Positions 6,082 through 57,283 are shown, counted from the stretch's first letter. The stretch is 64,000 nucleotides of DNA from an uncultured Gemmatimonadales bacterium (GCA_963840165.1 CAWIXT010000006.1:310244-374243), one strand, 5' to 3'. Numbers and translations are program-made. Notes: generated from the sequence alone by a model not told the origin.

Positions 6082-6245
6082 GGGGAGGACGGGAAGGACG
6101 GGAAGGACGGGAAGGCGGGAACCAACAGACTCGTATCGCGATGCTAAGTAGCCCTGCTAAGACAGCGGTTTGGACCGCGCACCATGAATTGTAGATGTCT
6201 CCTCTTTCCCGTCTTTCCCGCCCTTCCCGCCTAACCCTTCCCCTC
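6082..6245. repeat. Paired inverted arrays of a 9-bp tandem repeat, (GGACGGGAA)n and its complement, around a lower-GC spacer of about 78 bp
   Basis: The left arm (6082-6122) reads ggggaggacgggaaggacgggaaggacgggaaggcgggaac. The right arm (6201-6245) reads cctctttcccgtctttcccgcccttcccgcctaacccttcccctc. The element sits between the convergent bioD and pepN ends. Confidence 0.85.
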
Positions 6246-8616
6246 AATCTGTCGCTCGATCGCCTCCAGCACCCAGCGCCGCACCCAGGGCCGAGAGTCG
6301 CTCCCGGTGCTGAACCAGCGCGGTCAGCGCCCGAGTGTCTCCCTCGGAGGCCAGGGTGGCCAGCACCAGGGACGGCAGCTGCTGGTCGCCGAGAATCTTT
6401 TCCAGTCCGTCGATGAGCGTCGAATCAGGCGCGCGGGCCGCGGCGGCGATCGCCGCGTTCTGAATGACGTCGCGGTAGGAGGACGTGGTCGAGCCCGGCC
6501 AGCACCGGGGCCGAGACCCGACCGAATCGATGCGGGCGAGAACGGCAAGCGCGCCGGCTCGGACCTCGTAGCTCGAGTCGCGCTTCCAGGCATTCAGGGC
6601 GGCGGTCTGCGCCCGCTCCCGCCCAGAGCTCCCAGGCTGCTGATTGCCGCCTCCCGCACCGCGGCGGAGGTGTCGCGCATCGCGGCCTCCAGCGGCGGTA
6701 GCGCCACCCGCGCCGGGAACCGGCGCAGCGCCCTCGCCGCCTCAGCCCGGGTCAGATAGTAGTCCGCCCGCTGGGCCGCTCGCGCCAGCGCCGCTGCCGC
6801 AAGCGAGTCGTCGGCCGCGCTGGGCCAGCTGATCGATCACCCAGCTCCGGTTCCAGAGATCGGGATCGCGAAACAGCTGGGTGGCCAGCCAGCGAGTCGG
6901 CTGCTCGAAGGCGAGCGTCTTGACCATGGCGTTGTTCTCGTCGAACACCACCATCTGGGGCTGCGATTTCACGCCCTCCGATCAGGATGACCTGCTCCCG
7001 CCGGTCCAGCTGGACCCGCTTCCGCACGTCCCCGGCTGAGGTGCCCACCCGGATCATGACCGGCCCCTGAAAGACCAGCGGGGTGGCGAACCGAAGACCG
7101 GAGCTGTCGGCTCGGGCGGTGTCCACCTGGGATCTGGTGCACCGTCAGCGCAAGCGTCCCCGCGACGGAATCGTACGCGGCAGTGACGTTGAACTCGGGG
7201 TAGCCCGCCGGATAGATCCACTGGTTCCAGAACCAGTCCAGGTTCCGCCCGGTGGCATAGAGCACCGCGCGCCGGAGATCGTCGCTGGTGGCGTTGCCGA
7301 AGGCATGCCGGGTGAGATACCGGTTGATGGAGGCCCAGAACCGCTCCGGACCCAGATGCTTCTTCAGCATCTGCAGGACCAGGGCGCCCTTGGTGTAGAC
7401 GTTGTTGGAGTTGAACGACGGCCAGCGGCACCCGCCGCCGGGCATCGGCGGCCAGGAAACGCCGGTACTCGTCGAGGTAGAAGTCGTCCTCCGCATGGCG
7501 GCCCAGCTTCGTGCCCCAGTACTGCCCGGCCATGAACTCGGCCATCCCCTCGTTGAGCCAGTAGTTGGACCAGTTCTCGGTGGTGACCAGGTTGCCGAAC
7601 CACTGGTGGGCGAGCTCATGCGGGATCAGCGAGTGGCGATACCAGGGCCGGTCGCGATAGGCTCGGGCATCCGGCAGCCAGTCCACCAGGGTGGTGGCGC
7701 CCACGTTTTCCATCCCGCCGATGAAGTCGGTGACGGTGGTCTGCGGGTAGCCGGCCCAGGGGTACTTCACGCCGGTGAGCCGGGTGAAGACCTCCATCAT
7801 GTCCGGTGTCGCGCCGAAGAGGCGGCGAGCCAGCGGCAGGTCCTCGGAGTAGACGTAGTACTCCAGCGGGATGTCACGCCAGCGCTCGGTCACCTTGGTC
7901 AACGGCGCAACTACCAGCGAGACCAGATAGGTCGAGGCGGGCCGCTCCTGACGCCAGTGCACGGTGTGGGTCCGCTGCTTTGCCGCGGCCGGAGAGCCTC
8001 GACTCACCGGATCGGGTTTGTCGCTCACCAGCCGGCCGTTCGAGACAACCGTGAGACCCACCGGCACCCGGGCGATCAGCTCCCAGGTCGCCTTGTCGTG
8101 GGGGCCGGCGTAGGTGGGAATCCAGTTGGGATTGCCGTCGGTGCCGCCGCCGCTGTACACCTGCTGGGTCCGCCGTCGGCGGCCGGGCTCGGCCTTGAAG
8201 AAGTAGAGACCGCGGCCCTGCATCACCTTGCCGCGATAGTCGATGGTGAGACGCATCGTGTCGCGGAAACCGGCCGGTCGCGGCAGCCGCACGACGATCG
8301 AATCACCCACCCGCGAATACTGGACGGGCGGACGGGCGGACGGGCGGACGGTTGAACGCGCCGAGCTCAGGGTGACGGTGCGGACGGCCAATCGCCGACC
8401 CATGTTCAGTACGATCGAATCCAGTCCCGGCTTGAGCGACACGAGCGTGGTGCTCACGTTGCCGTCGAAGGCGGTGGCATCCCAGTCGAAGTTGCCGACC
8501 TCGATGCGCTGATGAATGAGGTCGTAGTCGTGCGACGGGGTATCGCGGCCGCTGAGGATCCGTTCGGCGTTGGACTGCTGCGCCGAGAGCGAGGCGAGCC
8601 CCAGGAGCATCCTCAT
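6231..8616 (-). pseudogene. pepN: M1-family aminopeptidase N with a C-terminal HEAT-like repeat region; at least 6 frameshifts
   Basis: The GGMENVG exopeptidase motif and HELAHQWFGN...WLNEG gluzincin motif lie in ORF 7054..8625. The protein continues in other frames (6969..7619, 6752..7126, 6742..6972, and unlisted frames down to about 6231). The ATG at 8616 gives MRMLLGLASLSAQQ. Confidence 0.8.
8322..8379. repeat. 8-bp tandem array (GGACGGGC x3.75) plus a core-like segment embedded in frame in the pepN coding sequence
   Basis: Plus-strand ggacgggcggacgggcggacgggcggacgg occupies 8322-8351. The adjacent gctcagggtgac is identical to 12 nt of the intergenic core element. The region is translated as TVTLSSARSTVRPSARPPVQ in ORF 7054..8625. 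Confidence 0.7.
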
Positions 8617-8689
8617 CCCGAGCAACGCGAGGGATCAGCCGGCGCACGCGCGGACGTCGAGTAGGTCCCTCGCTGCGCTCAGGATGAGG
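8611..8689. repeat. Palindromic core element: two inverted arms of about 25 bp with a loop of about 27 bp
   Basis: cctcatcccgagcaacgcgagggatc (8611-8636) faces ggtccctcgctgcgctcaggatgagg (8664-8689). It lies between the pepN start and the rnhB stop. Confidence 0.8.
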
Positions 8690-8701
8690 AGCCCTCTTGG
8701 A

Positions 8702-9338
8702 TCACAGCGACAGAGTCAGCTGGGCGAGCGGAGCGAAGGTCAGACGATGGTGCCTGGTGGGGCCGAGTGCCTGGATGCCTTCCTGATGCTCCTCGGTGCC
8801 GTAGCCCTACATTGGTGTGCCAGCCGTAGCCGGGATGGCGGACGGCCAGCCGGTGCATGAGGAGGTCGCGAACCGTCTTGGCCAGGATGGCGGCAGCCGA
8901 GATCGACTGGCAGCGCGCATCGCCGTCTACCAGGGCGTCGTGGGGGTAACCGATTTCGGGCAGCGGAAGGCCGTCGATGAGGATGCGGTAGGGGCGGCCC
9001 AGCACGGCGCGGCGAATGAGCTGGCCGATGGCCCGGCGCATGGCCAGGGCGGTGGCGACGCGGATGTTGTAGCGGTCGATCTCGTGGGCCGAGGCCGCAC
9101 CGATGCCGAAGGCGATGACGCGGCCCCGGATCTTCTCGGCCAGCCGCGCTCGCTTGCGCGGCGGAAGGATCTTGCTGTCGCGGAGACCCCGAACGCAGGA
9201 GCAACCGGCAGGAAATACAACGGCCGCAGCCACCACTGGTCCAGCCAGGGGGCCGCGGCCGGCCTCGTCAACACCGACGAGGAGATGCTCCTCCGCCCAA
9301 ACCGCCCGTTCGCGGATCAGTGTGGGTCGAGGGGCCAT
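8702..9338 (-). pseudogene. rnhB: Ribonuclease HII; one frameshift near 8810
   Basis: VGVDEAGRGPLAGPVV is in ORF 8679..9338. After HPGYGWHTN the conserved tail [30 protein letters not shown] is only readable after shifting one frame, and the stop then falls at 8702. Confidence 0.85.
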
Positions 9339-9342
9339 CGGC

Positions 9343-9690: not shown

Positions 9691-9779
9691 GGTCCCATCC
9701 TCCTTCGGTCGTTCGGTATACGGAAAAGCTGCAACGATCTTAGTACTATGACCCGATTTGTCATCTGGCCTGCGACCGA

Positions 9780-9846
9780 GTCATCCGGAGTGCAACGAAG
9801 GATCCCTTCGATAGCGCGCAGAGATCCTTCGCTTCGCTCAGGATGA
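9780..9846. repeat. Palindromic core element (second copy of the 8611-type hairpin pair)
   Basis: gtcatccggagtgcaacgaaggatccc faces agatccttcgcttcgctcaggatgac. It lies between trmD and rplS. It accounts for the spurious peptide VILSEAKDL in ORF 9761..10513. Confidence 0.8.
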
Positions 9847-10523
9847 CGAATCGTGCTTCTCCCACAGGTCCGGCCGTCGCTCCCGGGTCAGCCGCTCCGA
9901 TTCCGCCTGCGCGCCACGCCGCGATCTCGGCGTGATTTCCCGAGCGCAGCACTTCGGCACCTCCAGCCCCCGATACTCCGGCGGCCGGGTATAGCTCGGC
10001 GGGCTCAGCAACCCGTCGTAGTGCGAGTCGGCGCTGGCCGATTCGTGATCGCCCAACGCGCCGGGCAGCAGCCGTACCACCGCATCGAGGACACACAGAG
10101 CGCCGCCGGCTCGCCTCCCGACAGCACGAAGTCGCCGATCGAGAGCTCCTCGGTGGCGAGCCCATCGGCCACCCGCTGGTCCACGTCCTTGTAGTGACCA
10201 CACAGCAGCGTGAGCCGTTCGACCCAGCGAGAAGCGCACCGCGTCGTCGTGGGTGAAGCGTCGCCCGCGCGCCGAGAGCAGCACGATCGGTCCGGTGGGC
10301 CGGAGCGTATCCACCGCCTCGAAGAACGGCTCCGGCTTCAGCACCATTCCCGCGCCGCCGCCATACGCGTAGTCGTCCACCGTCGAGTGGCGGTCGTGGG
10401 TGAAGTCTCGCAGCTGCACCAGGCGGAACTGACCAGTCCGGCCGCCGCGGCCCGGCCCGGAATGCTCGCTGCCACGTAGGGCGCGATGACTTCCGGAAAG
10501 AGGGTGACGACATCGATGGTCAA
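9838..10523 (-). pseudogene. trmD: tRNA (guanine37-N1)-methyltransferase; about 5 frameshifts
   Basis: A TTG start at 10523 gives MTIDVVTLFPEVIAPYV. The segments [45 protein letters not shown] and VLRSGNHAEIAAWR are all present, but in alternating frames. Confidence 0.85.
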
Positions 10524-10526
10524 CGT

Positions 10527-10638
10527 CGGTACGGCGGTAGGGCGGTAGGGCGGTATGCGTGAGCCCGTCTCGGATTCCATTCGGCACCCCTCACCTGCTG
10601 TTTACCGCCGTACCGTCCTACCGCCCTACCGCCTATCC
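10527..10638. repeat. Paired inverted arrays of the 8-bp repeat GGCGGTAG/CTACCGCC
   Basis: cggtacggcggtagggcggtagggcggtatgcg (10527-10558) faces tttaccgccgtaccgtcctaccgccctaccgcctatcc (10601-10638). The pair fills the whole rimM-trmD intercistronic gap. Confidence 0.85.
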
Positions 10639-11155
10639 CTCGATCAGTCCCTCCGGCGGCGTCACCACCAGCCTCCGCCCCGCCCGATCCACCTGCTGCA
10701 CGAACTCCTTCTTGTACGGCAGGAGAAACTCGCGCTTGGGCCCCTGCACCTCGATCATGATCCCCGAGGGGATCTCGTACACCGCGGAGACCAGCCCCAG
10801 CGGGGTCTCGTCCGGGCAGCCGCACGGAGAACCCGTCGAGCTCGTGGAGGTAGACCTCGTCGTCTGCCGGCGGCGTCAGCTGATCGGCCGGGACCCCGAG
10901 GAACGTGCCCCGGAACGGATCCAGCGCGTCGCGGCTGTCCACCTCCGCGAACTTCACCAGCCACTCGCGATGGTATTCCCTGCTGCGCTCGACCGTCAGC
11001 GGTCCGGCGACCGTCTCGCCGGCCAGGTTCACCACCCAGAGCTGCCGGCCCGGCGCGAAGTGGGTACCGGGATCGGCCGTCAGCGGGAACAGGGTGCAGT
11101 CACCCTTCAATCCGTGAGGCTTCCGCAGCCGGCCGACGACTACGTGGGCAGTCAC
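10633..11155 (-). pseudogene. rimM: 16S rRNA processing protein RimM; one +1 frameshift near 10814
   Basis: GTG start followed by VVVGRLRKPHGLKGD. After ELDGFSV, the PRC-barrel part (PLGLVSAVYEIPSGIMIEVQGPKREFLLPY...PPEGLIEG stop) reads in the next frame. Confidence 0.8.
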
Positions 11156-11259
11156 GAGTCACGAGTCACGAGTCACGAGTAACGCCGGCAGGCTATGATA
11201 ACACCGACCGAGCGGGCAGCTACCGACTCAGCGACTCGCGACTCGCGACTCGCGACTTC
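11149..11259. repeat. Paired inverted arrays of 7-bp repeats, (GTCACGA)n and (CGACTCG)n
   Basis: cagtcacgagtcacgagtcacgagtcacgagtaacg (11149-11184) faces ccgactcagcgactcgcgactcgcgactcgcgacttc (11223-11259). The pair overlaps the rpsP 3' end and the rimM start. Confidence 0.85.
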
Positions 11260-11511
11260 TGTCGAGAACACCCCCGCCTGCTTCAGCAGCGACTGCACCG
11301 TGTCCGACGGCGTCGCTCCCTTGGCGATCCATTGCCGAGCCTTCTCCGCGTCGACCTTGATCTTGTCGGCGGCCGTCTCGCCCTTCGGGTTGTAGGTGCC
11401 GATGATCTCGATGAAGCGCCCGTCGCGGGGCGCCTCCTGGTCGGCGATCACGATGCGGTAGAGCGGAAGCTTTTTCCGGCCGATCCGGCGGAGACGAATG
11501 CGAGTTGCCAT
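11173..11511 (-). CDS. rpsP: 30S ribosomal protein S16, with a C-terminal tail of about 30 aa encoded by the repeat element
   Basis: [35 protein letters not shown]. The ORF runs through the 7-mer array ([12 protein letters not shown]) before reaching its stop at 11173. Confidence 0.9.
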
Positions 11512-11532: not shown

Positions 11533-12878
11533 TTAACCGGGGAATCCGCCGCGTCCGAAAGGCAGCTTCAGACCGGCGCCTCCGGTCTTCCCCGCGATCT
11601 TCATGAACTTCTGCATCTGCTTGAACTGCGACAGCAAGGTGTTGACTTCCTGCACCGTGCGGCCCGACCCCTTGGCGATGCGCAGCCGGCGCTGGCCGTT
11701 GATGACGTCCGGGTTGCTTCGCTCCTTCGGCGTCATCGACAGCACGATCGCCTCGACGTGCTTCAGCTTCTTGTCGTCCAGCTTGGCCGCCTGCAGCATG
11801 GCCGGGTTCATCCCCGGCAGCATGCCGAGCACGTTCTTGAGCGGCCCCATCTTCTGCATCTGCCGCATGGCGTTCAGGAAGTCGCCCAGGTCGAGCCCCT
11901 TCTTCGACTGGACCTTCTTGGCCAGCCGCTCGGCTTCCTTCTCATCGACCGTCGTCTGCGCCTTCTCGACCAGCGACAGGATGTCGCCCTGCTGCAGGAT
12001 CCGCCCCGCCAGCCGGTCGGGATGGAACGGCTCCAGCGCGTCGAGCTTCTCGCCCACGCCGATGTACTTGATCGGCGCGTGGGTGACGCCGTAGATCGAG
12101 AGCGCCGCGCCGCCCCGGGCGTCGCCGTCCATCTTGGTCAGCACCACGCCGGTGATGCCGAGCGCGTCGTGGAAGCCCTGCGCGATCCGGACCGCGTCCT
12201 GGCCGGTCATGCCGTCGGCGACGAGCAGAATCTCGTGGGGCGACACCGCCGCCTTGAGCCGCTTCAGCTCGTCCATCATCTCGTCGTCGATCTGCAGCCG
12301 GCCCGCGGTGTCCACGATGACGGTCCGGGCCCGGGCCTTGCCCGCCGCCACGATCCCGTCGCGCACGATCTTGACGACGTCCTGGTTGCGCATTGTCGCT
12401 GTGGACCCCGACCTCGACCTGGCGTCCCAGCGTGTGCAGCTGGTCGATGGCTGCGGGACGGTACACGTCGGCCGCCACCAGGAACGGCGCCTTCTGCTCC
12501 AGCTTCAGCCGCCTGGCCAGCTTGCCGGCCGTGGTCGTCTTGCCCGACCCCTGCAGGCCGACCAGCAGGATGACCGTCGGCGGCACCGTGGCGTGCGCGA
12601 TCGGCGCCTGCTTCTCGCCCAGCAACAGCGACCAGCTCGTCGTACACGATCTTGACCAGCTGGTGGCCCGGCCGGACCTCCTTCAGTGCGGCGAGCCCGA
12701 TCGCCTTCTCCTGGACCCGGGTAAGGAAGTCCCGGGTCAGATCGAAGCTGACGTCGGCCTCGAGCAGAATCCGCCGGATCTCCCGGAGCCCTTCCTTGAC
12801 CGCCTCTTCCGTCAGAACGCCGCGCCCGGTAAGCCGCTGGAGCGTGGCGTTGAGTTTGCTCGAAAGCTCGTCGAACAT
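11533..12878 (-). pseudogene. ffh: Signal recognition particle protein Ffh; two frameshifts, near 12630 and 12395
   Basis: The N domain MFDELSSKLNATLQRLTG is in ORF 12276..13085. The G domain [15 protein letters not shown] is in 11942..12625. DTAGRL, DGDARGG and the Met-rich M domain are in 11533..12393. Confidence 0.9.
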
Positions 12879-12916
12879 AAGCCCGTAAGAGTAGCAGCGG
12901 AGCGGACTTTCTTCAA

Positions 12917-13076
12917 GGCGGGCGGACTGGCGGGCGGACAGGCGGCAGGCGGACAGGCGGCAGGCGGACAGGCGGACAGGCGGACAGGCGGACAGGCGGA
13001 CAGGCGGACAGGCGGACAGGCGGACAGGCGGACAGGCGGACAGGCGGACAGGCGGACAGGCGGACAGGCGGACAGA
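12917..13076. repeat. Long tandem array of the 8-bp unit GGCGGACA: about 14 perfect plus about 5 degenerate units, roughly 160 bp
   Basis: Read directly from the sequence: ggcggacaggcggacagg... runs without interruption from about 12963 to 13075, with degenerate units from 12917. It lies in the ffh / DUF445 divergent intergenic region. Confidence 0.95.
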
Positions 13077-13085
13077 AGGGAACAC

Positions 13086-13220
13086 CTCATCCCGAGCAAC
13101 GCGAGGGATCTGCTCAGTCAGTTCCCGAACAATGTTGAGTAGGTGCTGCGCTCGCTGGACTCACGCAGGCTGAGGTGTCCTGTTTCCGTCCGCCTTACCG
13201 CCCTACCGCCTTACCGCCTA
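13086..13220. repeat. Single core-element arm plus a C-rich 8-mer array (CTTACCGC/CCTACCGC)
   Basis: cctcatcccgagcaacgcgagggatc at 13086-13110 is identical in 25/26 nt to 8611-8636. tgtcctgtttccgtccgccttaccgccctaccgccttaccgcc lies at 13177-13220. Confidence 0.65.
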
Positions 13221-13229
13221 ATTTCCACC

Positions 13230-20447: not shown

Positions 20448-21279
20448 TGCCCTCGATCAGGGCGCCAAGATCGCCCGTCACCCGGCCGGCCGTCTCCATC
20501 ACCTCCTCGTGATTGAGTTTGGTTGGTGAGATGCCGGAGGCGAGGTTAGTCACCACGGAGAAGCCGAGACAGCGAAGCCCACGGGCCCGTGCGGCGATCA
20601 CCTCGATCACGGTAGACATCCCCACCGCATCGCCACCGAGCCGGTCCAGCATGCGGATCTCGGCGGGAGTCTCGAAGCTGGGCCCCAGCAGCTGGACGTA
20701 GACCCCTTCGTCCAGGCCCAGCCGCTTTTCTCGCGCCACATCGCGCGCCAGGCCACGGAGCGCTGAATCATAGGGATCCGACATGTCCGGAAACCGCTCC
20801 TCGCCGGGCAGTACCGGGCCCAGCAGCGGGCTCCGGAATGTCAGGTTGATGTGGTCGGCAATGAGCATCAACGCTCCCTGGGCGAAGGTTCGGCGGATCC
20901 CGCCGGCTGCATTGGTCAGCAGGAGAGTCTTGACGCCGAGAGCCGCGAAGGTGCGCACCGGCAGCGCTGCCACCTCTGGGTCATGCCCTTCATAGAGATG
21001 GAACCGCCCGCTCTGGGCAATGATCTCCTTGCCGCCCAGGCTTCCCGCCACCAGCTCTCCGCCGTGGCCGATCACCGTGGGCTCAGGAAAACCGGGGACG
21101 TCACGATAGGGAATCGTGACCCGATCCTGAATTCGTTGGGTGAAGAATCCGAGGCCCGATCCCAAGACGACTGCGATTGACGGTGTGAAGGTGCCAAGCC
21201 GTTGTCTGACCGCATCGGCAGCTTGCCGCACTTGATCCGATACCGCTGCCCCGCTGCCCCGCTGCCCCGCCTCCGTCAC
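20431..21279 (-). CDS. punA: Purine nucleoside phosphorylase (PunA-type); start uncertain
   Basis: VVLGSGLG, HGGELVAG, LTNAAGG and GDAVGMSTV. The GTG at 21279 overlaps the nupC stop (GTGA). An internal GTG about 17 codons downstream is an alternative start. Confidence 0.85.
21243..21270. repeat. 8-bp tandem repeat (CCGCTGCC x3; GGGGCAGC on the minus strand)
   Basis: ccgctgccccgctgccccgctgccccgc lies directly after the nupC stop. If the GTG at 21279 is the punA start, it is translated as GQRGSGAA. Confidence 0.8.
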
Positions 21280-46045: not shown

Positions 46046-48502
46046 TTACTCCCCGTAAGGGATCCAGATGTTCTTCACCTGGGTGGCCTGCTCCAGGAAC
46101 TCCTCGCCTGCACCGCGCCGTTGGTCCGCCCAATCCCGCCCCTTTCCATGGTCTACCCAGGTACGCTTCATATTCCCGGTGGACAGACGTTCCACCTCGG
46201 CCGACATCTCAGCCGTACCGAAGTACCATAACCCATCCACGTCGTCATGAGCAGCGAGAACCGGAGCCAGCTCTTCGCTGCTGCCGGTCACGAGATTGAT
46301 CACGCCGGCGGGCACATCGGAGGTGTCCAGCACCTGGTAGAGCTCGGTAGCGACCAGCGGTGCCTGCCGCGAGGGAATGGCCACGACGGTATTGCCCATG
46401 GCGATGGGCGGCAGGACAGTCGATAGCAGGGAGAGCAGCGGCTGCTCATCGGGACACACCACACCCATGACACCGATCGGCTCGGGCATGGCCAGCGTCA
46501 CATTGCGGTACGGCGTATGATGTACCGCCCCATCGTACTTGTCGGCCCAAGCAGCGTAGACGTAGATCCGCTCGATGGCCAGCTCCACCTCCCGCGCCGC
46601 CATGGCCGCATCGCCGGTGCTCATGGCAATCCGGCCGCTGAACTCTTCGGCGCGCGCGGCCAGATTTTCCGCCAGGTAGTAAAGCACCTGGGCCCGGTTG
46701 TGGGCCGTGCCACCCCCCCAGCCGGCCGCCTTGTGCGCCGCTTCCACCGCGTTGCGAATGTCCTTGCGGTTTCCCTGCCCCACCTCACCGATCTGGCGGC
46801 CGGATGCATCCATCACGGGCAGGCTGTAGCCCGAATCCGGACGCACCTGCTTACCGCCGATGTAGAGCTTGGCGGTTCGGTTGATCGGGGGGACGGGCGG
46901 ACCGGCGGACGGGCGGACGGGCTGCCGTAAGGGTGGGCGTTCGGCCGAAGCAGCCGACTTTCTCGTCTTGCTTCGGGCTGCCTGTCTGCCTGTCCGCCTG
47001 TCCGCCTGTCCGCCCGTCCGCCCGTCCGCCTGCTCGTCCGTCCGCCAGCGAAGGTACTCCCGCAGCCCCTCGCGCCCGCCTTCACGGCCGAAGCCACTCT
47101 CGCGATATCCACCAAATCCGCTGGCGGCGTCGAATACGTTGGTGCAGTTCACCCAGACGGTGCCGGCTTTGAGCTGGGGCGCGATATCGAGGGCGAGGTT
47201 GATGTTCTCGGTCCAGACGCTGGCAGCCAGGCCGTAGCGGGTGTTGTTGGCCAGCTCGACCGATTCGGCCGGAGTGCGGAAGGTCATGAGGACCACCACC
47301 GGTCCGAAGATCTCCACCTGGGCAATGGTGGCGGCGGGCGACACCTCGGTGAACAAGGTCGGCGGAAAGAACCAGCCATCGGCCGGGCAGCTCCAGGAGG
47401 GCTGCCAGAGGGTGGCGCCTTCGTCCTCGCCCCGGCGCACCAGGTCCTGGATTTTCTCCAGCTGAACCGGGGCGATGATGGCCCCCATGTCTACCGCCTT
47501 GTCGAGCGGGTCCCCCACCCGCAGCGTCTCCATTCGCTGCTTCAGCTTGGTCACCAGCCGCTCGGCCACCCCCTCCTGGACCAGGATGCGGGACCCGGCG
47601 CAGCACACCTGGCCCTGATTGAACCAGATGGCATCCACCACCCCCTCGACCACGCTGTCGAGATCGGCGTCCGAGAAGACGATGAATGGCGACTTCCCGC
47701 CCAGCTCCAGCGAGAGCTTCTTGCCGCTGCCGGCCGTGGCGGAGCGGATTATGCGGCCCACTTCGGTCGAGCCGGTGAACGCGATCTTGTCTACATCGGG
47801 GTGCCCCACCAGCGCTGCGCCGGCGCGTCCGTCTCCGGTGATGATGTTGATCACACCTGGCGGCAGGCCGATCTCCTGGGATAGCTCGGCGAACCGGAGA
47901 GCGGTGAGCGAGGTGAACTCCGCCGGCTTGAGCACCACCGTGTTACCCATGGCCAACGCCGGCGCGATCTTCCAGGCCAGCATGAGGAGCGGGAAATTCC
48001 AGGGGATGATCTGCCCGATCACGCCCAGCGGCAGGCGGCCAGGTAGCTCCTGCTCCATCAGCTGGGCCCAGCCCGCATGATGATAGAAGTGGCGGGCCAC
48101 GAGGGGCACGTCGATGTCGCGCGATTCCCGTATCGGTTTTCCGTTGTCGAGCGATTCCAGGACGGCCAGCAGGCGGCTGTGTTTCTGTACCTCCCGCGCC
48201 AACGCGTAGAGATACCGGGCTCGGCCGTGCCCACCGAGCGACCACCAGAGCGGCTGCGCCGATCGGGCGGCGCGGACGGCACGGTCTACCTCGGCATCGG
48301 TGGCCTGCGCCAGCCGCGCCACCGGCTTCCCGGTGGCCGGGTTCAACGTCTCGAAGCTGTCACCCTTTCCCGCTATCCACTCCCCACCGATGAAAAGACC
48401 GAACCGTCGCCCGTGGGCCTCGAGCCACTGGTTTACCGGGCCTACTCCTTCGGGAGCCGGTCCATAGTCCATCGACTGGAAGATTTCGGGAACTGATGCC
48501 AT
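46046..48502 (-). CDS. Fused aldehyde dehydrogenase: a full catalytic ALDH joined by a repeat-encoded linker to a truncated ALDH-like (NAD-binding only) module
   Basis: The N-terminal half has ELGGKSP and FNQGQVCCAGSR (catalytic Glu and Cys). The C-terminal part of about 280 aa (AKLYIGGKQVRPDSGY...KNIWIPYGE) is ALDH-like, but I could not see a catalytic Cys. There is no stop between the two halves. The ATG at 48502 has a GGAGG Shine-Dalgarno. Confidence 0.75.
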   Translation of the reverse strand: MASVPEIFQSMDYGPAPEGVGPVNQWLEAHGRRFGLFIGGEWIAGKGDSFETLNPATGKPVARLAQATDAEVDRAVRAARSAQPLWWSLGGHGRARYLYALAREVQKHSRLLAVLESLDNGKPIRESRDIDVPLVARHFYHHAGWAQLMEQELPGRLPLGVIGQIIPWNFPLLMLAWKIAPALAMGNTVVLKPAEFTSLTALRFAELSQEIGLPPGVINIITGDGRAGAALVGHPDVDKIAFTGSTEVGRIIRSATAGSGKKLSLELGGKSPFIVFSDADLDSVVEGVVDAIWFNQGQVCCAGSRILVQEGVAERLVTKLKQRMETLRVGDPLDKAVDMGAIIAPVQLEKIQDLVRRGEDEGATLWQPSWSCPADGWFFPPTLFTEVSPAATIAQVEIFGPVVVLMTFRTPAESVELANNTRYGLAASVWTENINLALDIAPQLKAGTVWVNCTNVFDAASGFGGYRESGFGREGGREGLREYLRWRTDEQADGRTGGQADRRTGRQAARSKTRKSAASAERPPLRQPVRPSAGPPVPPINRTAKLYIGGKQVRPDSGYSLPVMDASGRQIGEVGQGNRKDIRNAVEAAHKAAGWGGGTAHNRAQVLYYLAENLAARAEEFSGRIAMSTGDAAMAAREVELAIERIYVYAAWADKYDGAVHHTPYRNVTLAMPEPIGVMGVVCPDEQPLLSLLSTVLPPIAMGNTVVAIPSRQAPLVATELYQVLDTSDVPAGVINLVTGSSEELAPVLAAHDDVDGLWYFGTAEMSAEVERLSTGNMKRTWVDHGKGRDWADQRRGAGEEFLEQATQVKNIWIPYGE
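46887..47046. repeat. Paired inverted 8-mer arrays (GGACGGGC/GGCGGACA family) forming the ALDH interdomain linker
   Basis: ggggggacgggcggaccggcggacgggcggacgggc (46887-46922) faces gcctgtctgcctgtccgcctgtccgcctgtccgcccgtccgcccgtccgcctgctcgtccgtccgcc (46979-47046). A spacer of about 57 nt separates them. The element is translated as DEQADGRTGGQADRRTGRQAARSKTRKSAASAERPPLRQPVRPSAGPPVPP. Confidence 0.85.
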
Positions 48503-48521
48503 TGAACCTCCGCAAAAGCTC

Positions 48522-49818: not shown

Positions 49819-49874
49819 ACGGGGCTGCCCCTGATGCACTTGGCCTTGCGGCCCCGGTGCCCCGCTGCCCCGCC
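49819..49874. repeat. GGGGCAGC-family 8-mer repeats (C-rich on the plus strand) with a short complementary upstream arm
   Basis: gacggggctgcccctg (49819-49834) and gccccggtgccccgctgccccgcc (49851-49874). It lies between the deoC start and the rhomboid stop. Confidence 0.7.
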
Positions 49875-54337: not shown

Positions 54338-54348
54338 AGTCCAAACCA

Positions 54349-54479: not shown

Positions 54480-56042
54480 ATGTCTTCACGATCGCTAAAC
54501 TGGCTCAAGTTCGGTGGTTTGGTCGCCCTGGCCTTTGCCTTGGGGCTGCTCTTTGCGGGGTTGTTGGACCTGCCCAACCGCTCGGCGGCCCAGGAACAGG
54601 GGCGCCAGACAAGCGCCATCGCCAAAGTCCCGGCCCCCTCCATCCCTGCGGCGCTGCCCCTCCAGGAGCTCAGTGAGGCGTTTGCCGCCGTCGCCGAGCA
54701 TGTCAAGCCAAGCGTGGTGTATATCCGGTCCCAGCGCACGGAGAGCACCACCAGGCAGCGGGTCCCGCGAGGCATGGAGCGGTTATTTCCCCAGTTCCGC
54801 CCCCGGGACGAGATCGAGCAGGGCAGCGGCTCGGGGTTCGTGGTGTCGTCCGACGGGTTCATTCTCACCAACAATCACGTAGTCGAGGGTGCCGAGCAGG
54901 TGACGGTCCGGCTGCTGGATCGGCGTGAGTTCAAAGCCAAGGTCATCGGCACCGACCCGAACACCGACGTGGCCGTGCTCAAGATCGATGCGAAGGGACT
55001 GCCACCCGTGGCACTGGGGAACAGTGAGGATGCGCGGGTAGGTGAATGGGTGCTCGCCATCGGCAACCCGCTCGGCGAGGGCCTCACCTTCACCGTGACG
55101 TCCGGTATCGTGAGCGCCAAGGGCCGGGCCCTCAACGGCCTTCCGGGCCGGGGCCAGGGCAGCATCCAGGACTTCATTCAGACCGATGCGGCCATCAACC
55201 CCGGCAACTCGGGCGGACCGCTTGTCAGCGTCAGGGGTGAGGTCATCGGGATCAACTCCGCGATTGCCAGCGAAACCGGCTTCTACTCCGGCTATGGCTT
55301 TGCCATCCCTATCAACCTCGCGCGCACCGTCATGAACCAGCTGGTGGAAACCGGTTCGGTGCACCGGGCCGCGCTGGGAGTCTCCATCGACAACGTCACC
55401 CTCACCGATGCCGAGTATGTCGGGCTCCCGGAAATCCGGGGTGTCGTAGTGAAGGACATTCCCAACGAGGATTCCCCGGCTAAGGCCGCCGGTATCGTTC
55501 CCGGCGATGTGATCGTCTCGGTCGACAGCAAGCCGGTCGAGCGGGTCGGTCAACTCCAGCAGGTCATCGGCTTTCGGAAGCCGGGCGACGTGGTCAAAGT
55601 CGAAGTCGCCCGGAAGGGGGGCGTGCGCAAGACCTTCGACGTCAAGCTCCAGGCCCTCAACGACCAGCCGCAGGTGGCCAGCGCCGAGGAGGGCGAGACC
55701 GAGAACGGCGGCGAACCGGCCGGGACGGCAATGAACCGGCTGGGGATCAGTGTGGAGCCGGTCACTCCCAGCGTTGCCCAGCAGCTTCAGCTTCCCCAGG
55801 ACATGCGGGGCCTGGTCGTCACGGATGTGACGCCCGGTGGACCGGCCTGGGAGACCCTGGTGGACGATCCGCAGCGCAACGGACCCGACATCATTCTATC
55901 GGTGGAGGGCAAGCCGGTGCGGACGGAAGCCGAGCTCCGCAACGCTCTCAAGGCCGAGAAGCCCGGGAGCATCGTCTCACTCGGCATCTACAACCCGCGG
56001 AGCCGCAGCCGCAGGGTGGATCGGATCCGGCTCGGGGAGTAA
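54480..56042 (+). CDS. htrA: Periplasmic serine endoprotease, HtrA/DegP/DegQ family, with two PDZ domains
   Basis: The ATG at 54480 is preceded by GAAGGA. An N-terminal TM anchor is present. The catalytic residue contexts are TNNHVV, DVAVLKI and GNSGGPLV. Two PDZ-like regions follow. Confidence 0.9.
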   Translation: MSSRSLNWLKFGGLVALAFALGLLFAGLLDLPNRSAAQEQGRQTSAIAKVPAPSIPAALPLQELSEAFAAVAEHVKPSVVYIRSQRTESTTRQRVPRGMERLFPQFRPRDEIEQGSGSGFVVSSDGFILTNNHVVEGAEQVTVRLLDRREFKAKVIGTDPNTDVAVLKIDAKGLPPVALGNSEDARVGEWVLAIGNPLGEGLTFTVTSGIVSAKGRALNGLPGRGQGSIQDFIQTDAAINPGNSGGPLVSVRGEVIGINSAIASETGFYSGYGFAIPINLARTVMNQLVETGSVHRAALGVSIDNVTLTDAEYVGLPEIRGVVVKDIPNEDSPAKAAGIVPGDVIVSVDSKPVERVGQLQQVIGFRKPGDVVKVEVARKGGVRKTFDVKLQALNDQPQVASAEEGETENGGEPAGTAMNRLGISVEPVTPSVAQQLQLPQDMRGLVVTDVTPGGPAWETLVDDPQRNGPDIILSVEGKPVRTEAELRNALKAEKPGSIVSLGIYNPRSRSRRVDRIRLGE

Positions 56043-56048
56043 CTAGCA

Positions 56049-56194
56049 GCGGGTAACCGGGTAACCGGGTAAGCCGGTAGAGTACACGAGGGGGCCAGAA
56101 GCTGAATAGAGCTCGGCCCCTTCGCTGCGCTCAGGGTGACAGAGGCTCTCCCCCCCGGCCTACCCGCTTACCCGCCCACCCGCTGTCCCGCTAC
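56049..56194. repeat. Paired inverted 8-mer arrays (GGGTAACC / TACCCGCY) enclosing a single core-element arm
   Basis: gcgggtaaccgggtaaccgggtaagccggtagag (56049-56082), core ccccttcgctgcgctcagggtgaca (56117-56141), and ggcctacccgcttacccgcccacccgctgtcccgctac (56157-56194). Confidence 0.8.
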
Positions 56195-56202
56195 TTTCAA
56201 AC

Positions 56203-56901
56203 ATGCCGCTCCGTGGAATCATCTTCGATATCGATGGCACCCTCGTCGACACCAATCCCGCCCACGTCGAGGCCTGGCGCAGGGCCTTTCAGCGGCTGGG
56301 GTACGACGTGCCTGTGAGTCGTATTGTGGTCGAGATCGGCAAAGGGGGGGACCTGCTGGTCCCGTCAGTCCTCGGGCAAGAAGCGGAGAAACGTCACGGA
56401 GAGACGCTCCGGAAGCTGCAGAAGGAAGAGTTTCTCGCTATCGCCGAACGGGAGTCCTTCCGGGTCTTTCCTTGTGTGCCGGAGCTCTTCCAGGCTCTGC
56501 GTGATCGACACATCCGGACCGCTCTGGCCACCTCGAGCGACCAGAAGCACCTTCAGGGTGTCTGCCGGAGCGCGGGCCTCGATCTTCCGAGTCTGGCGGA
56601 CGTCCTGGTCACCAAAGACGACGCCCAGGCCAGCAAGCCCGAGCCCGACCTGGTGGTCGTCGCCTGGGAGAAGCTGGCGGTGGCTCCCACCGAGTGTGCC
56701 ATGGTGGGCGACACCATCTATGACGGACAGGCCTGCCAGGCCGCTGGGGTCGTGTTCCTGGGCCTGGAGTCCGGCGGCACTCCGGCAGAGGCACTGCTGG
56801 AAGCCGGCGCCCGGGGGGTATGGCACGATACCGGCCACCTCTACGCCGACCTGGATCATGCGCTCGAGCTTGCCGCTCTCTCGGCGGTTTCCAGACGATA
56901 G
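56203..56901 (+). CDS. HAD-superfamily hydrolase (subfamily IA, phosphatase-like)
   Basis: Motif I IIFDIDGTLVDT, motif II ATSS, and motif III/IV K...VGDTIYD. It is 232 aa. Confidence 0.8.
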   Translation: MPLRGIIFDIDGTLVDTNPAHVEAWRRAFQRLGYDVPVSRIVVEIGKGGDLLVPSVLGQEAEKRHGETLRKLQKEEFLAIAERESFRVFPCVPELFQALRDRHIRTALATSSDQKHLQGVCRSAGLDLPSLADVLVTKDDAQASKPEPDLVVVAWEKLAVAPTECAMVGDTIYDGQACQAAGVVFLGLESGGTPAEALLEAGARGVWHDTGHLYADLDHALELAALSAVSRR

Positions 56902-56930
56902 CCTCCCTCGCACTCAGGAGCTGCATCCGA

Positions 56931-57200
56931 ATGACCACCAGCGAAGAGACCGACTGGATGAACCATCCCGCTATCCGGGCCCTGGTGGATCAGGCGAACA
57001 CCTTGCAGCTCGAAGAGCGGATCACGCTGGTCAAAGGTTTGATCCCCGGCATAGCGGACGCACTCTCGGAGGAGGAATACGAGCAGTTCGTCACCTTCAT
57101 CAGGCTCAAGGGCGAGCGGTACCACGAGGCGAAATCCCATCCGGGCGCCGGCCGGGCCGAGCGACACATCCCGGGTGAGCGCGAGCTGGAAGGACGGTAG
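56931..57200 (+). CDS. Small hypothetical protein (89 aa)
   Basis: The ATG at 56931 within ORF 56820..57200 gives MTTSEETDWMNHPAIRALVDQANTLQLEERITLVKGLIPG. The composition looks coding, but I recognised no motif. Confidence 0.45.
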   Translation: MTTSEETDWMNHPAIRALVDQANTLQLEERITLVKGLIPGIADALSEEEYEQFVTFIRLKGERYHEAKSHPGAGRAERHIPGERELEGR

Positions 57201-57283
57201 GCAGCGGGGCAGCGGGGCAGCGGGGCAGCGGGGCAGCGGGGCAGCCAAACTAGCAAATTGTCACCCTGAGCGCAGCGAGGGGG
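57200..57283. repeat. 8-bp tandem array (GGCAGCGG x5.5, five GGGG tracts) followed by a core-element arm
   Basis: ggcagcggggcagcggggcagcggggcagcggggcagcggggcagcc (57200-57246), and tgtcaccctgagcgcagcgaggggg (57259-57283). The latter is the 24/25 reverse complement of 56117-56141. Confidence 0.9.

What the first reader, a model, noticed from the sequence alone, without database searches (positions are those of the whole stretch)
6082..57283. Pervasive intergenic architecture: paired inverted arrays of 7-9 bp tandem repeats
At least eight gene boundaries carry the same construction. A G-rich tandem array is followed by a spacer of 30-80 nt (often lower in GC), and then by a C-rich array that is its approximate reverse complement.

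Loci and units:
- 6082-6245, GGACGGGAA, 9-mer.
- 10527-10638, GGCGGTAG.
- 11149-11259, GTCACGA/CGACTCG, 7-mer.
- 12917-13220, GGCGGACA.
- 46887-47046, GGACGGGC/GGCGGACA.
- 49819-49874 and 21243-21270, GGGGCAGC.
- 56049-56194, GGGTAACC.
- 57200-57246, GGGGCAGC.

The architecture is conserved while the unit sequence differs between loci. Only a few unit families recur. This is not what simple slippage or a single MITE family would give. The arrays sit exactly at stop/start codons: 3 nt after the bioD stop, filling the rimM-trmD gap, and touching the rimM start. Each pair can fold into a long imperfect hairpin in the mRNA. The 22-kb phosphate block (about 24-46 kb) contains none. I do not recognise this as a described element class. 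REP/BIME elements are the nearest analogy.
Basis: seen in the sequence. Interest (0 to 1): 0.75.

Follow-up and report, generated by a model that had tools for sequence, protein, structure and literature searches.

The report
Tandem-repeat hairpin elements between genes
The paired G-rich and C-rich repeat arrays are real hairpin-forming insertions between genes of a soil Gemmatimonadales bacterium, and in relatives (and in cyanobacteria) the same kind of arms enclose a small gene of the family first found inside ribosomal-RNA intervening sequences.

Summary
The window holds 16 tandem arrays with 7-9-nt units, against 0-2 in shuffles. Six are G-rich/C-rich inverted pairs and four are solo arms. 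Most abut stop or start codons.

The window comes from a Gemmatimonadales genome. In 1.13 Mb of related loci there are 53 such pairs. The G-rich arm always comes first. The spacers are unique to each site. Orthologous junctions are empty in some relatives and filled with different units in others.

The architecture is not undescribed. Cyanobacterial STRR hairpins and paired octamer sites in Geobacter have the same construction.

The new lead is a gene link. All six PF05635 genes (23S-rRNA-IVS protein, Avd-like four-helix bundle) in the related loci sit between such arms. Of 60 metagenomic copies with both flanks, 59 have at least one arm. About 13 of 15 copies on cyanobacterial or Azospirillum plasmids have them too.

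Best reading: these are gene-less members of an IVS-like foldback element class. The transcripts fold into 20-35-bp stems, which would suit RNase III. The arms change by slippage and recombination. The function is inferred, not shown. No PF05635 gene lies in this window.

The parts
6080..6231 (.). Pair 1: G-arm 6080-6121 (ACGGGAAGG x4.8), unique 81-nt spacer, C-arm 6203-6231. It lies between the convergent bioD-like gene (stop at 6077-6079) and a minus-strand ORF ending near 6245.
   Evidence: fold -71.9 kcal/mol, z -5.7. The relative L003 has only a short C-rich remnant at this site.
8320..8354 (.). Solo G-rich array (GGACGGGC x3.8) inside the M1-peptidase ORF (7054-8625, minus strand). It is read in frame as a Pro/Ser/Ala/Arg loop.
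   Evidence: Orthologues L024, L033, L038 and L012 carry arrays at the same spot; L004, L001 and L015 do not.
10523..10634 (-). Pair 2, filling the rimM-trmD junction: G-arm 10523-10558, spacer, C-arm 10603-10634. On the sense (minus) strand the rimM TAG is in the first unit. The trmD start is TTG directly after the last unit.
   Evidence: fold -66 kcal/mol, z -5.2. The junction is empty ('cATG') in L036, L037, L041, L042 and L057.
11148..11259 (-). Pair 3, at the rpsP-rimM junction (7-mers AGTCACG / CGACTCG). The S16 ORF reads through one arm and the spacer. The rimM GTG start lies in the last unit.
   Evidence: fold -71.6 kcal/mol, z -7.1. The sense strand is 17 kcal/mol more stable than the antisense strand through G-U pairs.
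12916..13221 (.). Pair 4, between divergent ffh (minus) and DUF445 (plus). On the plus strand the G-arm is 12916-13079 (GGCGGACA x18). The 110-nt spacer holds a REP-like half-site at 13091-13107. The C-arm is 13190-13221 (CCGCCTTA x3.8). The 18-copy arm ends at the conserved ffh -35 box.
21241..21274 (-). Solo array (CCGCTGCC x3.5 on the plus strand). It is G-rich on the sense strand, immediately after the stop of the minus-strand gene 21276-22685.
46886..47046 (-). Pair 5: G-arm 46886-46927, spacer, C-arm 46976-47046. It is translated as the ~60-aa linker between the two domains of a conserved fused aldehyde dehydrogenase (46046-48535, minus strand).
   Evidence: fold -89.9 kcal/mol, z -6.7
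49850..49874 (-). Weak solo array (GCCCCGCT x2.9 on the plus strand) just after the stop of the minus-strand gene 49880-50641.
56047..56192 (+). Pair 6, between two plus-strand genes (stop at 56040-56042, next ATG at 56203): G-arm 56047-56079 (GGGTAACC), spacer with a REP-like site at 56119-56135, C-arm 56158-56192.
   Evidence: fold -86.2 kcal/mol, z -6.4
57198..57284 (+). Solo G-arm (GGCAGCGG x5.8, 57198-57247) that begins at the TAG stop. A REP-like half-site follows at 57265-57281, and the next ATG is at 57294.

Best explanation
**What it is.** The arrays are the arms of foldback (hairpin) elements that are abundant in Gemmatimonadales. Each element has:
- a G-rich tandem array (7-10-nt units, 3-18 copies);
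- a short spacer unique to the site;
- the complementary C-rich array.

The order is always G then C when read on either strand. The elements are wedged between stop and start codons and often overlap them.

**Gene link.** In the full-length form, the same kind of arms enclose a ~120-aa PF05635/TIGR02436 gene (23S-rRNA-intervening-sequence protein, a four-helix bundle related to the DGR protein Avd). The window carries only gene-less pairs and solo arms.

**Shown here:**
- The arms are complementary and fold into 20-35-bp stems.
- The elements are gained, lost or replaced between genomes about 90% identical.
- Copy number changes between near-identical strains.
- The loop can be inverted between the arms.
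- PF05635 genes are bracketed by such arms in Gemmatimonadota, cyanobacteria and Azospirillum.

**Inferred:**
- The elements are selfish or near-neutral insertions, tolerated because their transcripts fold into a long stem that is processed or ignored. The model is the S23p-bearing rRNA intervening sequences, which RNase III excises.
- In operons the stem joins the stop codon of one gene to the start of the next. A terminating ribosome would melt it, which would give translational coupling.
- At convergent gene ends the stem would protect 3' ends.
- The arms evolve by slippage, by arm-to-arm conversion, and by exchange between sites of one genome.
- G-first order may be kept for two reasons. 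A C-rich RNA arm made first would be exposed to Rho. And purine-rich, Shine-Dalgarno-like repeats then always lie upstream of a loop gene in either orientation.
For: **Reality and structure**
- Arrays are real and far above chance.
- All tested pairs form hairpins.

**Position**
- 86 of 122 8-mer arrays lie fully outside genes, against an 86% coding background.
- Many lie within 0-5 nt of the upstream stop and 0-17 nt of the next start.

**Polarity and arm co-variation**
- Every 8- and 9-mer pair among the 53 pairs has its G-rich arm first; some 7-mer pairs have near-neutral skew.
- Neighbouring arrays run G then C 42 times and C then G twice. Arm units show 0.90 mismatches against 2.41 for the null.

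**Turnover**
- The junctions rpsP|rimM, rimM|trmD and DUF445<>ffh are variously empty, filled with different unit families, or hold a REP-like palindrome, even in L003 and L004 (~90% nt identity to the window).
- L035 has a filled rimM|trmD junction, whereas five of its closest relatives by ffh (L036, L057, L042, L037, L041) have it empty.

**PF05635 link**
- 6 of 6 PF05635 genes in the ffh loci lie between G and C arms.
- In 80 metagenomic loci, an array lies upstream in 61 of 71 and downstream in 62 of 69. Both arms are present in 44 of 60 and neither in 1 of 60.
- Array density is 3.0 per kb within 300 nt of the gene and 0.083 per kb elsewhere. Polarity is 61:1 upstream and 64:1 downstream.
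- L124 and L130 share the gene plus the inner arm units (87.5% over 506 nt) but have unrelated flanks.
- In L135/L154 and L086/L094 the loop is inverted between the same flanks.
- Copy number differs between loci with 99-100% identical genes.
- In L037 the gene-bearing pair and a gene-less pair share the 9-mer GAGGACGCA.
- Outside the phylum, inspection of 15 cases shows arms in about 13. These are Calothrix, Nostoc, Picosynechococcus, Anabaena, Geminocystis and Azospirillum. Gemmatirosa, a cultured Gemmatimonadota member, shows them as well.

**Literature**
- The Coxiella IVS has an S23p ORF in the loop and a 28-bp stem of terminal inverted repeats, and RNase III cleaves it (PMC4990558).
- STRR hairpins are described in cyanobacteria (PMC2670836).
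Against: - No PF05635 gene lies in the 64-kb window.
- Gene-less spacers show no sequence similarity to the interiors of PF05635 elements. Descent of gene-less pairs from gene-bearing ones is therefore unproven. The gene may instead insert into pre-existing hairpins.
- No target-site duplication or transposase was found, so the means of spread is unknown.
- Sense and antisense strands fold about equally well (21 vs 13 cases, p = 0.14). Nothing here shows selection at the RNA rather than the DNA level.
- Arrays also sit in frame inside proteins, which an RNA-processing role does not explain.
- The data set is built around one operon and one gene family. It is not a genome-wide census.
- Units are only slightly more alike within a genome than between genomes (2.14 vs 2.52 mismatches, p = 0.03).
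Confidence: 0.6

Rival explanations
1. The arrays are tandem binding sites for a trans-acting protein. One candidate is a nucleoid protein or global regulator, as proposed for the paired octamer and heptamer sites of Geobacter metallireducens. Another is the oligomeric PF05635 protein itself. On this view the pairing of arms is secondary.
For: - The Geobacter paper interprets paired sites of 4-5 tandem 7- or 8-mers as regulator or IHF/HU sites.
- Typical copy numbers here are 3-6. By established knowledge, the solved relative XCC0516 is a homopentamer (PMC4990558; PDB 2gsc).
- Solo arms exist.
- Units are somewhat genome-specific.
- At the ffh site the array ends exactly at the -35 box.
Against: - Units vary widely between sites of one genome. 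One protein could hardly read them all.
- Arm complementarity is maintained although units change. That points to pairing rather than to a fixed recognition sequence.
- Arrays occur inside coding regions.
- No binding data exist.
Confidence: 0.15
2. The pairs are conserved host regulatory structures that the cell needs at these junctions, such as terminators, attenuators or mRNA stabilisers of the REP/BIME type. They would not be selfish or neutral insertions.
For: - The stems are stable.
- They sit exactly at stop and start codons.
- The ~21-nt-period element at rpsP|rimM keeps its sequence in about 15 species.
- The rimM|trmD element keeps its spacer in the window, L006, L015 and L017.
- The literature suggests transcript stabilisation or translational coupling for STRR hairpins.
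Against: - The same junctions are empty, with overlapping TGATG or cATG, in many relatives. Close relatives carry unrelated fillings.
- No T-run follows any C-arm, and the terminator scan does not flag the arrays.
- Two pairs lie inside the essential rpsP-rimM-trmD operon, where termination would be harmful.
- Pairs occur in convergent, divergent and co-directional settings alike.
Confidence: 0.15
3. The arrays are footprints of a DNA-repair or DNA-synthesis process. For example, repeats are added to both 3' ends of a break, telomere-like, and then joined; or template switching occurs at a hairpin. On this view they are not elements with a life of their own.
For: - The polarity is strict. The G-rich strand always runs 5' to 3' toward the centre.
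- The two arms often differ in copy number, and sometimes in unit (12933 x18 against 13190 x3.8).
- Outer units differ between copies of the same PF05635 element.
- PF05635 proteins are relatives of Avd, a partner of a reverse transcriptase (established knowledge of DGRs).
Against: - No reverse transcriptase or polymerase is linked in any locus examined.
- Many different units occur in one genome.
- Arrays abut codons rather than lying in the middle of spacers.
- Inner arm units move together with the gene.
- The idea is speculative.
Confidence: 0.05
4. The arrays are an assembly or sequencing artefact of a long-read metagenome bin.
For: The window has many frameshifts in conserved genes (ffh, trmD, rimM). 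That is typical of uncorrected long-read assemblies, so exact copy numbers are uncertain.
Against: - The same architecture occurs at the same junctions in dozens of independent assemblies, including Illumina megahit and SPAdes contigs.
- It also occurs in finished genomes of cultured organisms.
Confidence: 0.01

Closest known systems
Cyanobacterial STRR (short tandemly repeated repetitive) hairpins, e.g. between hupS and hupL (PMC2670836)
   Same: - Short tandem units sit in intergenic regions.
- Arrays in inverted orientation can form a hairpin between genes of one operon.
- The function is unknown; transcript stability or translational coupling has been proposed.
   Different: - The units here are mostly 8-mers (also 7, 9, and up to about 30 nt), very G+C-rich, and in a different phylum.
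- None of the classic STRR sequences occurs.
- The arrays overlap stop and start codons and even encode protein linkers.
- The papers I could search report neither the polarity rule nor the PF05635 link.
23S rRNA intervening sequences carrying an S23p/PF05635 ORF (Leptospira, Coxiella; PMC4990558)
   Same: - Complementary termini form a stem of about 28 bp, with the same gene family in the loop.
- They are regarded as selfish, are transferred horizontally, and are tolerated because RNase III excises them.
   Different: - The elements here lie between or inside protein-coding genes, not in helix 25 or 45 of 23S rRNA.
- The stems are built from tandem repeats.
- Most copies, and all copies in this window, have no ORF.
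- Excision has not been shown.
Paired 'global regulator binding sites' of Geobacter metallireducens (PMC2700814)
   Same: - Sites of 4-5 tandem hepta- or octanucleotides occur in pairs on opposite strands at variable distance.
- They are found at dozens of intergenic places, including between genes of one operon (proB-proA).
   Different: - The unit sequences differ (GTTGCTYN, MTYCTGA) and the phylum differs.
- They were interpreted as protein-binding sites.
- The text I read does not report a relation to PF05635 genes, a polarity, or hairpin formation.
REP/BIME elements and MITEs
   Same: - They are dispersed intergenic hairpin-forming DNA.
- They are variable between strains.
- Roles in mRNA stabilisation and termination are known for REP.
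   Different: - REP and MITE copies share a conserved sequence across sites. Here only the design is shared, and the spacers are unique.
- The arms are tandem arrays rather than a single palindrome.
- No target-site duplication was seen.
- A separate, true REP-like family (GTCAYCCTGAGCGNAGCGARGG) coexists in the same window.
Foldback transposons of eukaryotes (own knowledge)
   Same: They have long inverted terminal arms that are themselves made of short tandem repeats. The arm lengths vary, and the centre can invert.
   Different: They are eukaryotic and kilobase-sized. There is no evidence of common descent or a shared mechanism.

Membership tests
STRR-type tandem-repeat hairpins | Short (about 7-nt) units repeated head to tail in intergenic DNA | tested here: met
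   Units of 7-9 nt, 3-18 copies. 86 of 122 8-mer arrays in relatives lie outside genes, against 86% coding background.
STRR-type tandem-repeat hairpins | Arrays in inverted orientation able to form a hairpin between genes | tested here: met
   Six pairs in the window. Folds have z of -5.2 to -7.1.
STRR-type tandem-repeat hairpins | Canonical STRR unit sequences and cyanobacterial host | tested here: not met
   The host is Gemmatimonadales. The units are GGCGGNNN-like 8-mers.
S23p/PF05635 intervening-sequence elements | Complementary termini forming a stem of about 20-30 bp | tested here: met
   The stems have tens of paired bases, roughly 20-35 bp per arm. The Coxiella stem is 28 bp.
S23p/PF05635 intervening-sequence elements | PF05635 ORF in the loop | tested here: not met
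   None in the window (tblastn). The feature is met in relatives: 6 of 6 genes lie between arms, and 59 of 60 metagenomic copies have at least one arm.
S23p/PF05635 intervening-sequence elements | Insertion in helix 25 or 45 of 23S rRNA | tested here: not met
   The window has no rRNA (Rfam). The elements lie between or inside protein-coding genes.
S23p/PF05635 intervening-sequence elements | Excision by RNase III | not testable with these tools
REP/BIME | Many copies of one conserved imperfect palindrome of about 35 nt | tested here: not met
   Spacers and units differ between sites. A different family in the window does fit this feature.
REP/BIME | Cognate RAYT (Y1 transposase) in the genome | not tested
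   Only 64 kb of the genome is available. No search for a RAYT was made.
MITE | Terminal inverted repeats, a target-site duplication, and a conserved interior shared by copies | tested here: not met
   Inverted arms are present. Interiors are unique. Empty versus filled junctions show replacement of about 20 nt rather than a duplication.
Intrinsic terminator | G+C-rich stem followed by a U-tract | tested here: not met
   No T-run follows any C-arm. The terminator scan of 5.5-14 kb does not pick up the arrays.
CRISPR array | Repeats of 25-40 nt separated by unique spacers of similar size | tested here: not met
   The units are 7-9 nt and contiguous.
Known RNA families (Rfam) | A match at the gathering score | tested here: not met
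   Only two tRNAs were found in the window.

The most novel reading that the evidence does not exclude
Small PF05635 four-helix-bundle proteins (relatives of the retroelement protein Avd and of the rRNA-IVS protein S23p) and short-tandem-repeat foldback arms form one previously unrecognised class of genetic cassette. It is found across phyla: Gemmatimonadota, Cyanobacteria and Alphaproteobacteria. In this reading the protein binds, maintains or spreads the arrays. The many gene-less pairs, including the classic cyanobacterial STRR hairpins whose origin has been open since 1990, are its non-autonomous derivatives. The strict purine-first polarity is a mechanistic signature of that system.
Probability: 0.3. 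Interest if true: 0.85.

Novelty: new variant of a known kind. Interest (0 to 1): 0.68.

Why it matters
- **Scale.** These elements occupy a large share of the intergenic space in an abundant but barely studied soil phylum.
- **Effects on genes.** They overwrite stop and start codons: the S16 tail is extended, and the trmD ATG is replaced by TTG. They also supply the linker of a conserved fused enzyme. They therefore shape both gene expression and protein sequence.
- **Annotation.** They confuse gene callers, because ORFs run through the arrays.
- **Strain typing.** They are variable-number repeat markers between strains.
- **An open question becomes testable.** The link to PF05635 genes ties together three things treated separately until now: rRNA intervening sequences, cyanobacterial STRR repeats, and a large protein family of unknown function. 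Cultured organisms are available for the tests, namely Gemmatirosa kalamazoonensis and Nostoc punctiforme.

Tried and rejected
1. **Rfam at gathering score.** Only tRNAs were found.
2. **One dispersed MITE family.** Rejected: blast of all spacers finds only orthologous sites, or the separate REP-like motif.
3. **Strand test for RNA-level selection (G-U asymmetry).** Not significant overall (21 vs 13, p = 0.14). It is strong only for the 7-mer pair at rpsP|rimM.
4. **Spacers as deletion remnants of PF05635 elements.** No similarity was found.
5. **Exact-protein look-ups to find the source contig.** Both failed.
6. **Literature searches.** Searches for Gemmatimonadetes repeats and for PF05635 with repeats found no description. 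The library covers only open-access papers, so absence is weak evidence.
7. **Canonical terminators.** No U-tracts were found.
8. **CRISPR and assembly artefact.** Both rejected on anatomy and on recurrence in independent assemblies.
9. **The ALDH pair as an intergenic element fusing two genes through sequencing error.** Rejected: more than 100 homologues are fused proteins of 800-835 aa.
10. **Polarity of solo arms relative to genes.** After a stop the arm is G-rich 25:4; before a start it is C-rich 19:1. This is not independent evidence, because it follows automatically if solo arms are remnants of G-first pairs.

Full report

A simple self-shift scan gives the same picture.

There are six G-rich/C-rich pairs:
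- 6080-6121 / 6203-6229 (9-mer)
- 10527-10555 / 10603-10633
- 11150-11184 / 11224-11257 (7-mer)
- 12933-13075 (18 copies) / 13190-13219
- 46886-46922 / 46980-47046
- 56050-56077 / 56161-56192

The window has 16 arrays of period 7-9 with TRF score >=36, and 11 with score >=50. Thirty dinucleotide-preserving shuffles give 0-2 and 0.

The five pairs I folded give stems of tens of base pairs, with z-scores of -5.2 to -7.1. None of 200 shuffles folded as well.

Reading the sequence confirms the placement at codons:
- The TGA of the bioD-like gene is followed at once by the first unit.
- The rimM TAG and the TAG at 57198 are parts of units.
- The rimM GTG start lies in the last unit of the 7-mer arm.

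No array of three or more copies lies between 21.3 and 46.9 kb.

**2. Where does the window come from, and is this an artefact?**

Flanking genes are a bioD-like ATPase, an M1 peptidase, trmD, rimM, rpsP, ffh and a DUF445 protein. A scan of one genome per species with the Ffh fragment returned 80 loci. Seventy-nine are titled Gemmatimonadales, Gemmatimonadaceae or Gemmatimonadota MAGs, and one is titled Bacillota.

The closest, L003 and L004, are about 88-92% identical in DNA. Their alignments to the window break exactly at the arrays.

The window itself has several frameshifts in conserved genes (ffh, trmD, rimM). Exact copy numbers should therefore not be trusted. The same architecture nevertheless recurs in short-read assemblies and in finished genomes. 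It is not an assembly artefact.

**3. Anatomy across relatives**

In 1.13 Mb of loci plus the window I found 53 pairs.

*Period and position.* Period 8 dominates, with 122 arrays of at least three copies. Of these, 86 lie wholly outside my gene calls, although 86% of the DNA is coding. Many arrays start within 0-5 nt of the upstream stop and end within 0-17 nt of the next start.

*Polarity.* Every 8- and 9-mer pair has its G-rich arm on the left and its C-rich arm on the right; a few 7-mer pairs have near-neutral skew. This arrangement is its own reverse complement, so the rule holds on both strands. Among all neighbouring arrays within 300 nt, the order is G then C 42 times and C then G twice.

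*Arm co-variation.* The units of the two arms of a pair differ by 0.90 positions on average. Arms taken from different loci differ by 2.41.

*Spacers.* They are unique to each site. Blast finds only the orthologous site in relatives, or else a separate dispersed palindrome, GTCAYCCTGAGCGNAGCGARGG. That palindrome also occurs alone in the window, with 12 matches against 3.4 expected. The pairs are therefore not copies of one MITE.

*Strand.* Sense and antisense strands fold about equally well overall (21 vs 13, p = 0.14). I cannot say from sequence that selection acts on the RNA.

**4. Turnover at orthologous junctions**

*rpsP|rimM.* Many species have the overlapping TGATG and no spacer at all. 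Others carry a 7-mer pair, as the window does. Still others carry a pair with a 21-22-nt period (GCGTAAGCGGGAA...), which is found only at this site. L003 has the latter type, while the window and L004 have the former.

*rimM|trmD.* The states are:
- empty ('cATG');
- 8-mer pairs with several unit families;
- the REP-like palindrome alone;
- both together.

L003 is nearly empty, L004 has the palindrome, and the window has the pair. L035 has a filled junction, whereas five of its closest relatives by ffh (L036, L057, L042, L037, L041) have it empty. Where the C-arm abuts trmD, the ancestral ATG is replaced by a TTG start.

*DUF445<>ffh.* The arm on the ffh side ends exactly at a conserved promoter-like box: CCGCC|TTGAAGAAA, 17 nt, TAnnCT, about 9 nt, ATG.

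*Inside coding regions.* Arrays also enter coding sequence in frame.
- A loop of the M1 peptidase carries an array in the window and in four relatives, but not in others.
- The 46.9-kb pair encodes the linker of a fused aldehyde dehydrogenase.
- That fusion is 800-835 aa in more than 100 homologues.
- The homologues' linkers read as translated arrays. Examples are TDGQADGRT...DRPSARPSVPP, and in other lineages GGKGG...SSTASS.

**5. The gene in the loop**

In three relatives the DUF445<>ffh pair encloses an ORF of about 0.4 kb, in either orientation. It is a PF05635/TIGR02436 protein, the '23S rRNA-intervening sequence protein' or four-helix-bundle protein. It has a weak match to the DGR protein Avd. 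The only relative in the PDB by sequence is 2gsc, XCC0516.

All six copies in the ffh loci lie between a G-arm and a C-arm.

A metagenome scan with an alignment of four such proteins gave 80 loci:
- A G-rich array lies within 300 nt upstream in 61 of 71 loci.
- A C-rich array lies downstream in 62 of 69 loci.
- Both arms are present in 44 of 60 loci, one in 15, and neither in 1.
- Array density is 3.0 per kb near the gene, against 0.083 per kb elsewhere on the same contigs.
- Polarity is 61:1 upstream and 64:1 downstream.
- Median distances are 81 nt upstream and 26 nt downstream.

Further observations on these loci:
- L124 and L130 share the gene and the innermost arm units (87.5% over 506 nt). 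Their flanks are unrelated and their outer units differ.
- In L135/L154 and L086/L094 the segment between the arms is inverted relative to the same flanks.
- Loci with 99-100% identical genes differ in copy number, for example 5.2 vs 8.2 and 11.5 vs 13.5.
- In L037 a gene-bearing pair and a gene-less pair share the 9-mer GAGGACGCA.

Against a simple 'deletion derivative' model, gene-less spacers show no similarity to the interiors of gene-bearing elements. The window itself has no PF05635 gene.

**6. Beyond the phylum**

A tblastn search of plasmids found PF05635 genes mostly in cyanobacteria. I read the flanks of 15 copies outside Gemmatimonadota, plus one from the cultured Gemmatirosa kalamazoonensis. 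By inspection, about 13 of the 15 are bracketed by a purine-rich tandem array upstream and the complementary pyrimidine-rich array downstream.

| Organism | Upstream / downstream units |
|---|---|
| Calothrix | AGGGTGT / CTACACC |
| Nostoc, Aulosira and Trichormus | TCAGGAG / CTGACTC |
| Nostoc sp. ATCC 53789 | GGGAAAA / CCCTTTT |
| Picosynechococcus | AGGAGATA / ATCTCCTA (between cas10 and cmr3) |
| Anabaena sp. 90 | CAGGTGA / CTGTCAC |
| Geminocystis | purine-rich / complementary pyrimidine-rich |
| Azospirillum | AGAGGACGG / CCGTCCTCT |

- Nostoc punctiforme also has a gene-less pair of the same heptamer next to its gene-bearing pair.
- Gemmatirosa has a short GAGGGCAG / CTGCCCTC pair, then the gene, then CTCCTGCC.
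- Pseudanabaena has direct rather than inverted arrays around the gene.
- One Calothrix copy has no arrays.

**7. What is known**

- Hairpins made of short tandemly repeated (STRR) 7-bp units between genes are described in filamentous cyanobacteria. Their function is unknown, and transcript stability or translational coupling has been suggested (PMC2670836).
- The Geobacter metallireducens genome paper annotates dozens of paired, opposite-strand sites of 4-5 tandem hepta- or octanucleotides. It reads them as regulator sites (PMC2700814).
- The Coxiella 23S rRNA intervening sequence is called a selfish element. It has a 28-bp stem of terminal inverted repeats and an S23p ORF in the loop, and RNase III excises it (PMC4990558).
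- In the library available to me, I found no paper that links PF05635 genes to tandem-repeat arms, or that describes these arrays in Gemmatimonadota. The library is limited, so this is weak evidence of novelty.

**8. How it most likely works**

*Shown.* The arms are complementary and form hairpins. The elements sit at gene boundaries. They turn over between close relatives. Copy number varies. The loop can invert. PF05635 genes are associated with such arms across phyla.

*Inferred.*
- The elements are selfish or near-neutral insertions that are tolerated because the transcript folds into a long stem.
- By analogy with the S23p-bearing IVS, RNase III would cut that stem.
- In operons the base of the stem brings the upstream stop next to the downstream start. 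A terminating ribosome would open the stem, which would give translational coupling.
- At convergent gene ends the stem would protect 3' ends.
- The stems are not canonical terminators, because no U-tract follows them (and direct reading).

*Polarity.* Two reasons could keep the G-first order.
- A C-rich arm transcribed first would be single-stranded, C-rich, G-poor RNA, which is the preferred substrate of Rho (established knowledge). With the G-rich arm made first, the C-rich arm pairs as soon as it is made.
- With G-first order, a loop gene has purine-rich, Shine-Dalgarno-like repeats upstream in either orientation. This fits the cyanobacterial copies, where TCAGGAG units abut the ATG. It fits Gemmatimonadales less well, where about 80 nt intervene.

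*Open points.* How the elements reach new sites is unknown. I saw no transposase and no target-site duplication. Exchange between arrays of similar units is one possibility. Units are slightly more alike between sites of one genome than between genomes (2.14 vs 2.52 mismatches, p = 0.03).

**9. Verdict**

The finding is real and is a conspicuous feature of this lineage. As an architecture, it is a new variant of a known kind, related to STRR-type hairpins and IVS-like foldback elements.

It is not a new class, and REP/BIME is not the nearest relative.

The cross-phylum association with PF05635 genes and the strict polarity are, as far as I could check, new observations. They make the old question of what STRR-like repeats are directly testable.

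Noticed in passing
window 8617-8683, 9785-9842, 13091-13107, 56119-56135, 57265-57281: A separate dispersed REP-like palindrome family, GTCAYCCTGAGCGNAGCGARGG. It often occurs as an inverted pair of about 75 nt, for example between trmD and rplS. The window has 12 matches against 3.4 expected. It occurs alone, inside array spacers, or next to solo arms, and is common in the relatives' intergenic regions.
   Followed up: partly
window 46046-48535 (minus strand): A fused two-domain aldehyde dehydrogenase is conserved in more than 100 Gemmatimonadales homologues (800-835 aa). Its inter-domain linker is encoded by a G-array/spacer/C-array pair. The linker peptides change with the lineage's repeat unit (TDGQADGRT...DRPSARPSVPP against GGKGG...SSTASS).
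   Followed up: partly
window 7054-8625 (minus strand), array at 8320-8354: A surface loop of an M1-family peptidase carries an in-frame 8-mer array in the window and in L024, L033, L038 and L012. It is absent from L004, L001, L015 and L007.
   Followed up: partly
window 9761-10590, 10520-11155, 11533-12900: trmD, rimM and ffh each need one or more frame changes to be read through. This points to indel errors of a long-read assembly, or less likely to pseudogenes. Array copy numbers in the window are therefore uncertain.
   Followed up: partly
window 12840-12916 (minus strand); loci L002-L076 upstream of ffh: A conserved promoter-like block lies directly upstream of ffh: TTGAAGAAA, 17 nt, TAnnCT, about 9 nt, ATG. 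This implies a very short leader. The DUF445 gene likewise has TAATTT only 5 nt before its ATG.
   Followed up: no
window 10513-10523 and loci L006, L015, L017, L038: Where the C-rich arm abuts trmD, the ATG start seen in array-free relatives is replaced by CCG/CCC followed by a TTG start. No Shine-Dalgarno sequence is present.
   Followed up: partly
window 11173-11300 (minus strand): The ribosomal protein S16 ORF runs through one arm and the spacer, which gives a 34-aa tail. In relatives with the 7-mer pair, the S16 ORF ends at a TAG or TAA at the end of the first arm. In array-free relatives it ends KAATV* with the stop overlapping the rimM start.
   Followed up: partly
L164 (Picosynechococcus plasmid), L165 (Pseudanabaena), L175 (Anabaena sp. 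90): PF05635 genes with their repeat arms are inserted inside CRISPR-Cas operons: between cas10 and cmr3, and between cas6 and cas4.
   Followed up: no
L001-L080 rpsP|rimM junction: A site-specific pair with a 21-22-nt period (GCGTAAGCGGGAA plus 8-9 variable nt) is kept in about 15 species. The left arm always carries TAA, which is the S16 stop. The complement of the right arm always carries TGA, so one A-C mismatch per unit is conserved.
   Followed up: partly
window 57200-57245, 8322-8351, 46886-46922: Several G-rich arms, such as (GGGGCAGC)x6 and (GGACGGGC)n, match the usual G-quadruplex pattern (four or more G3+ runs with short loops). This was not examined further.
   Followed up: no
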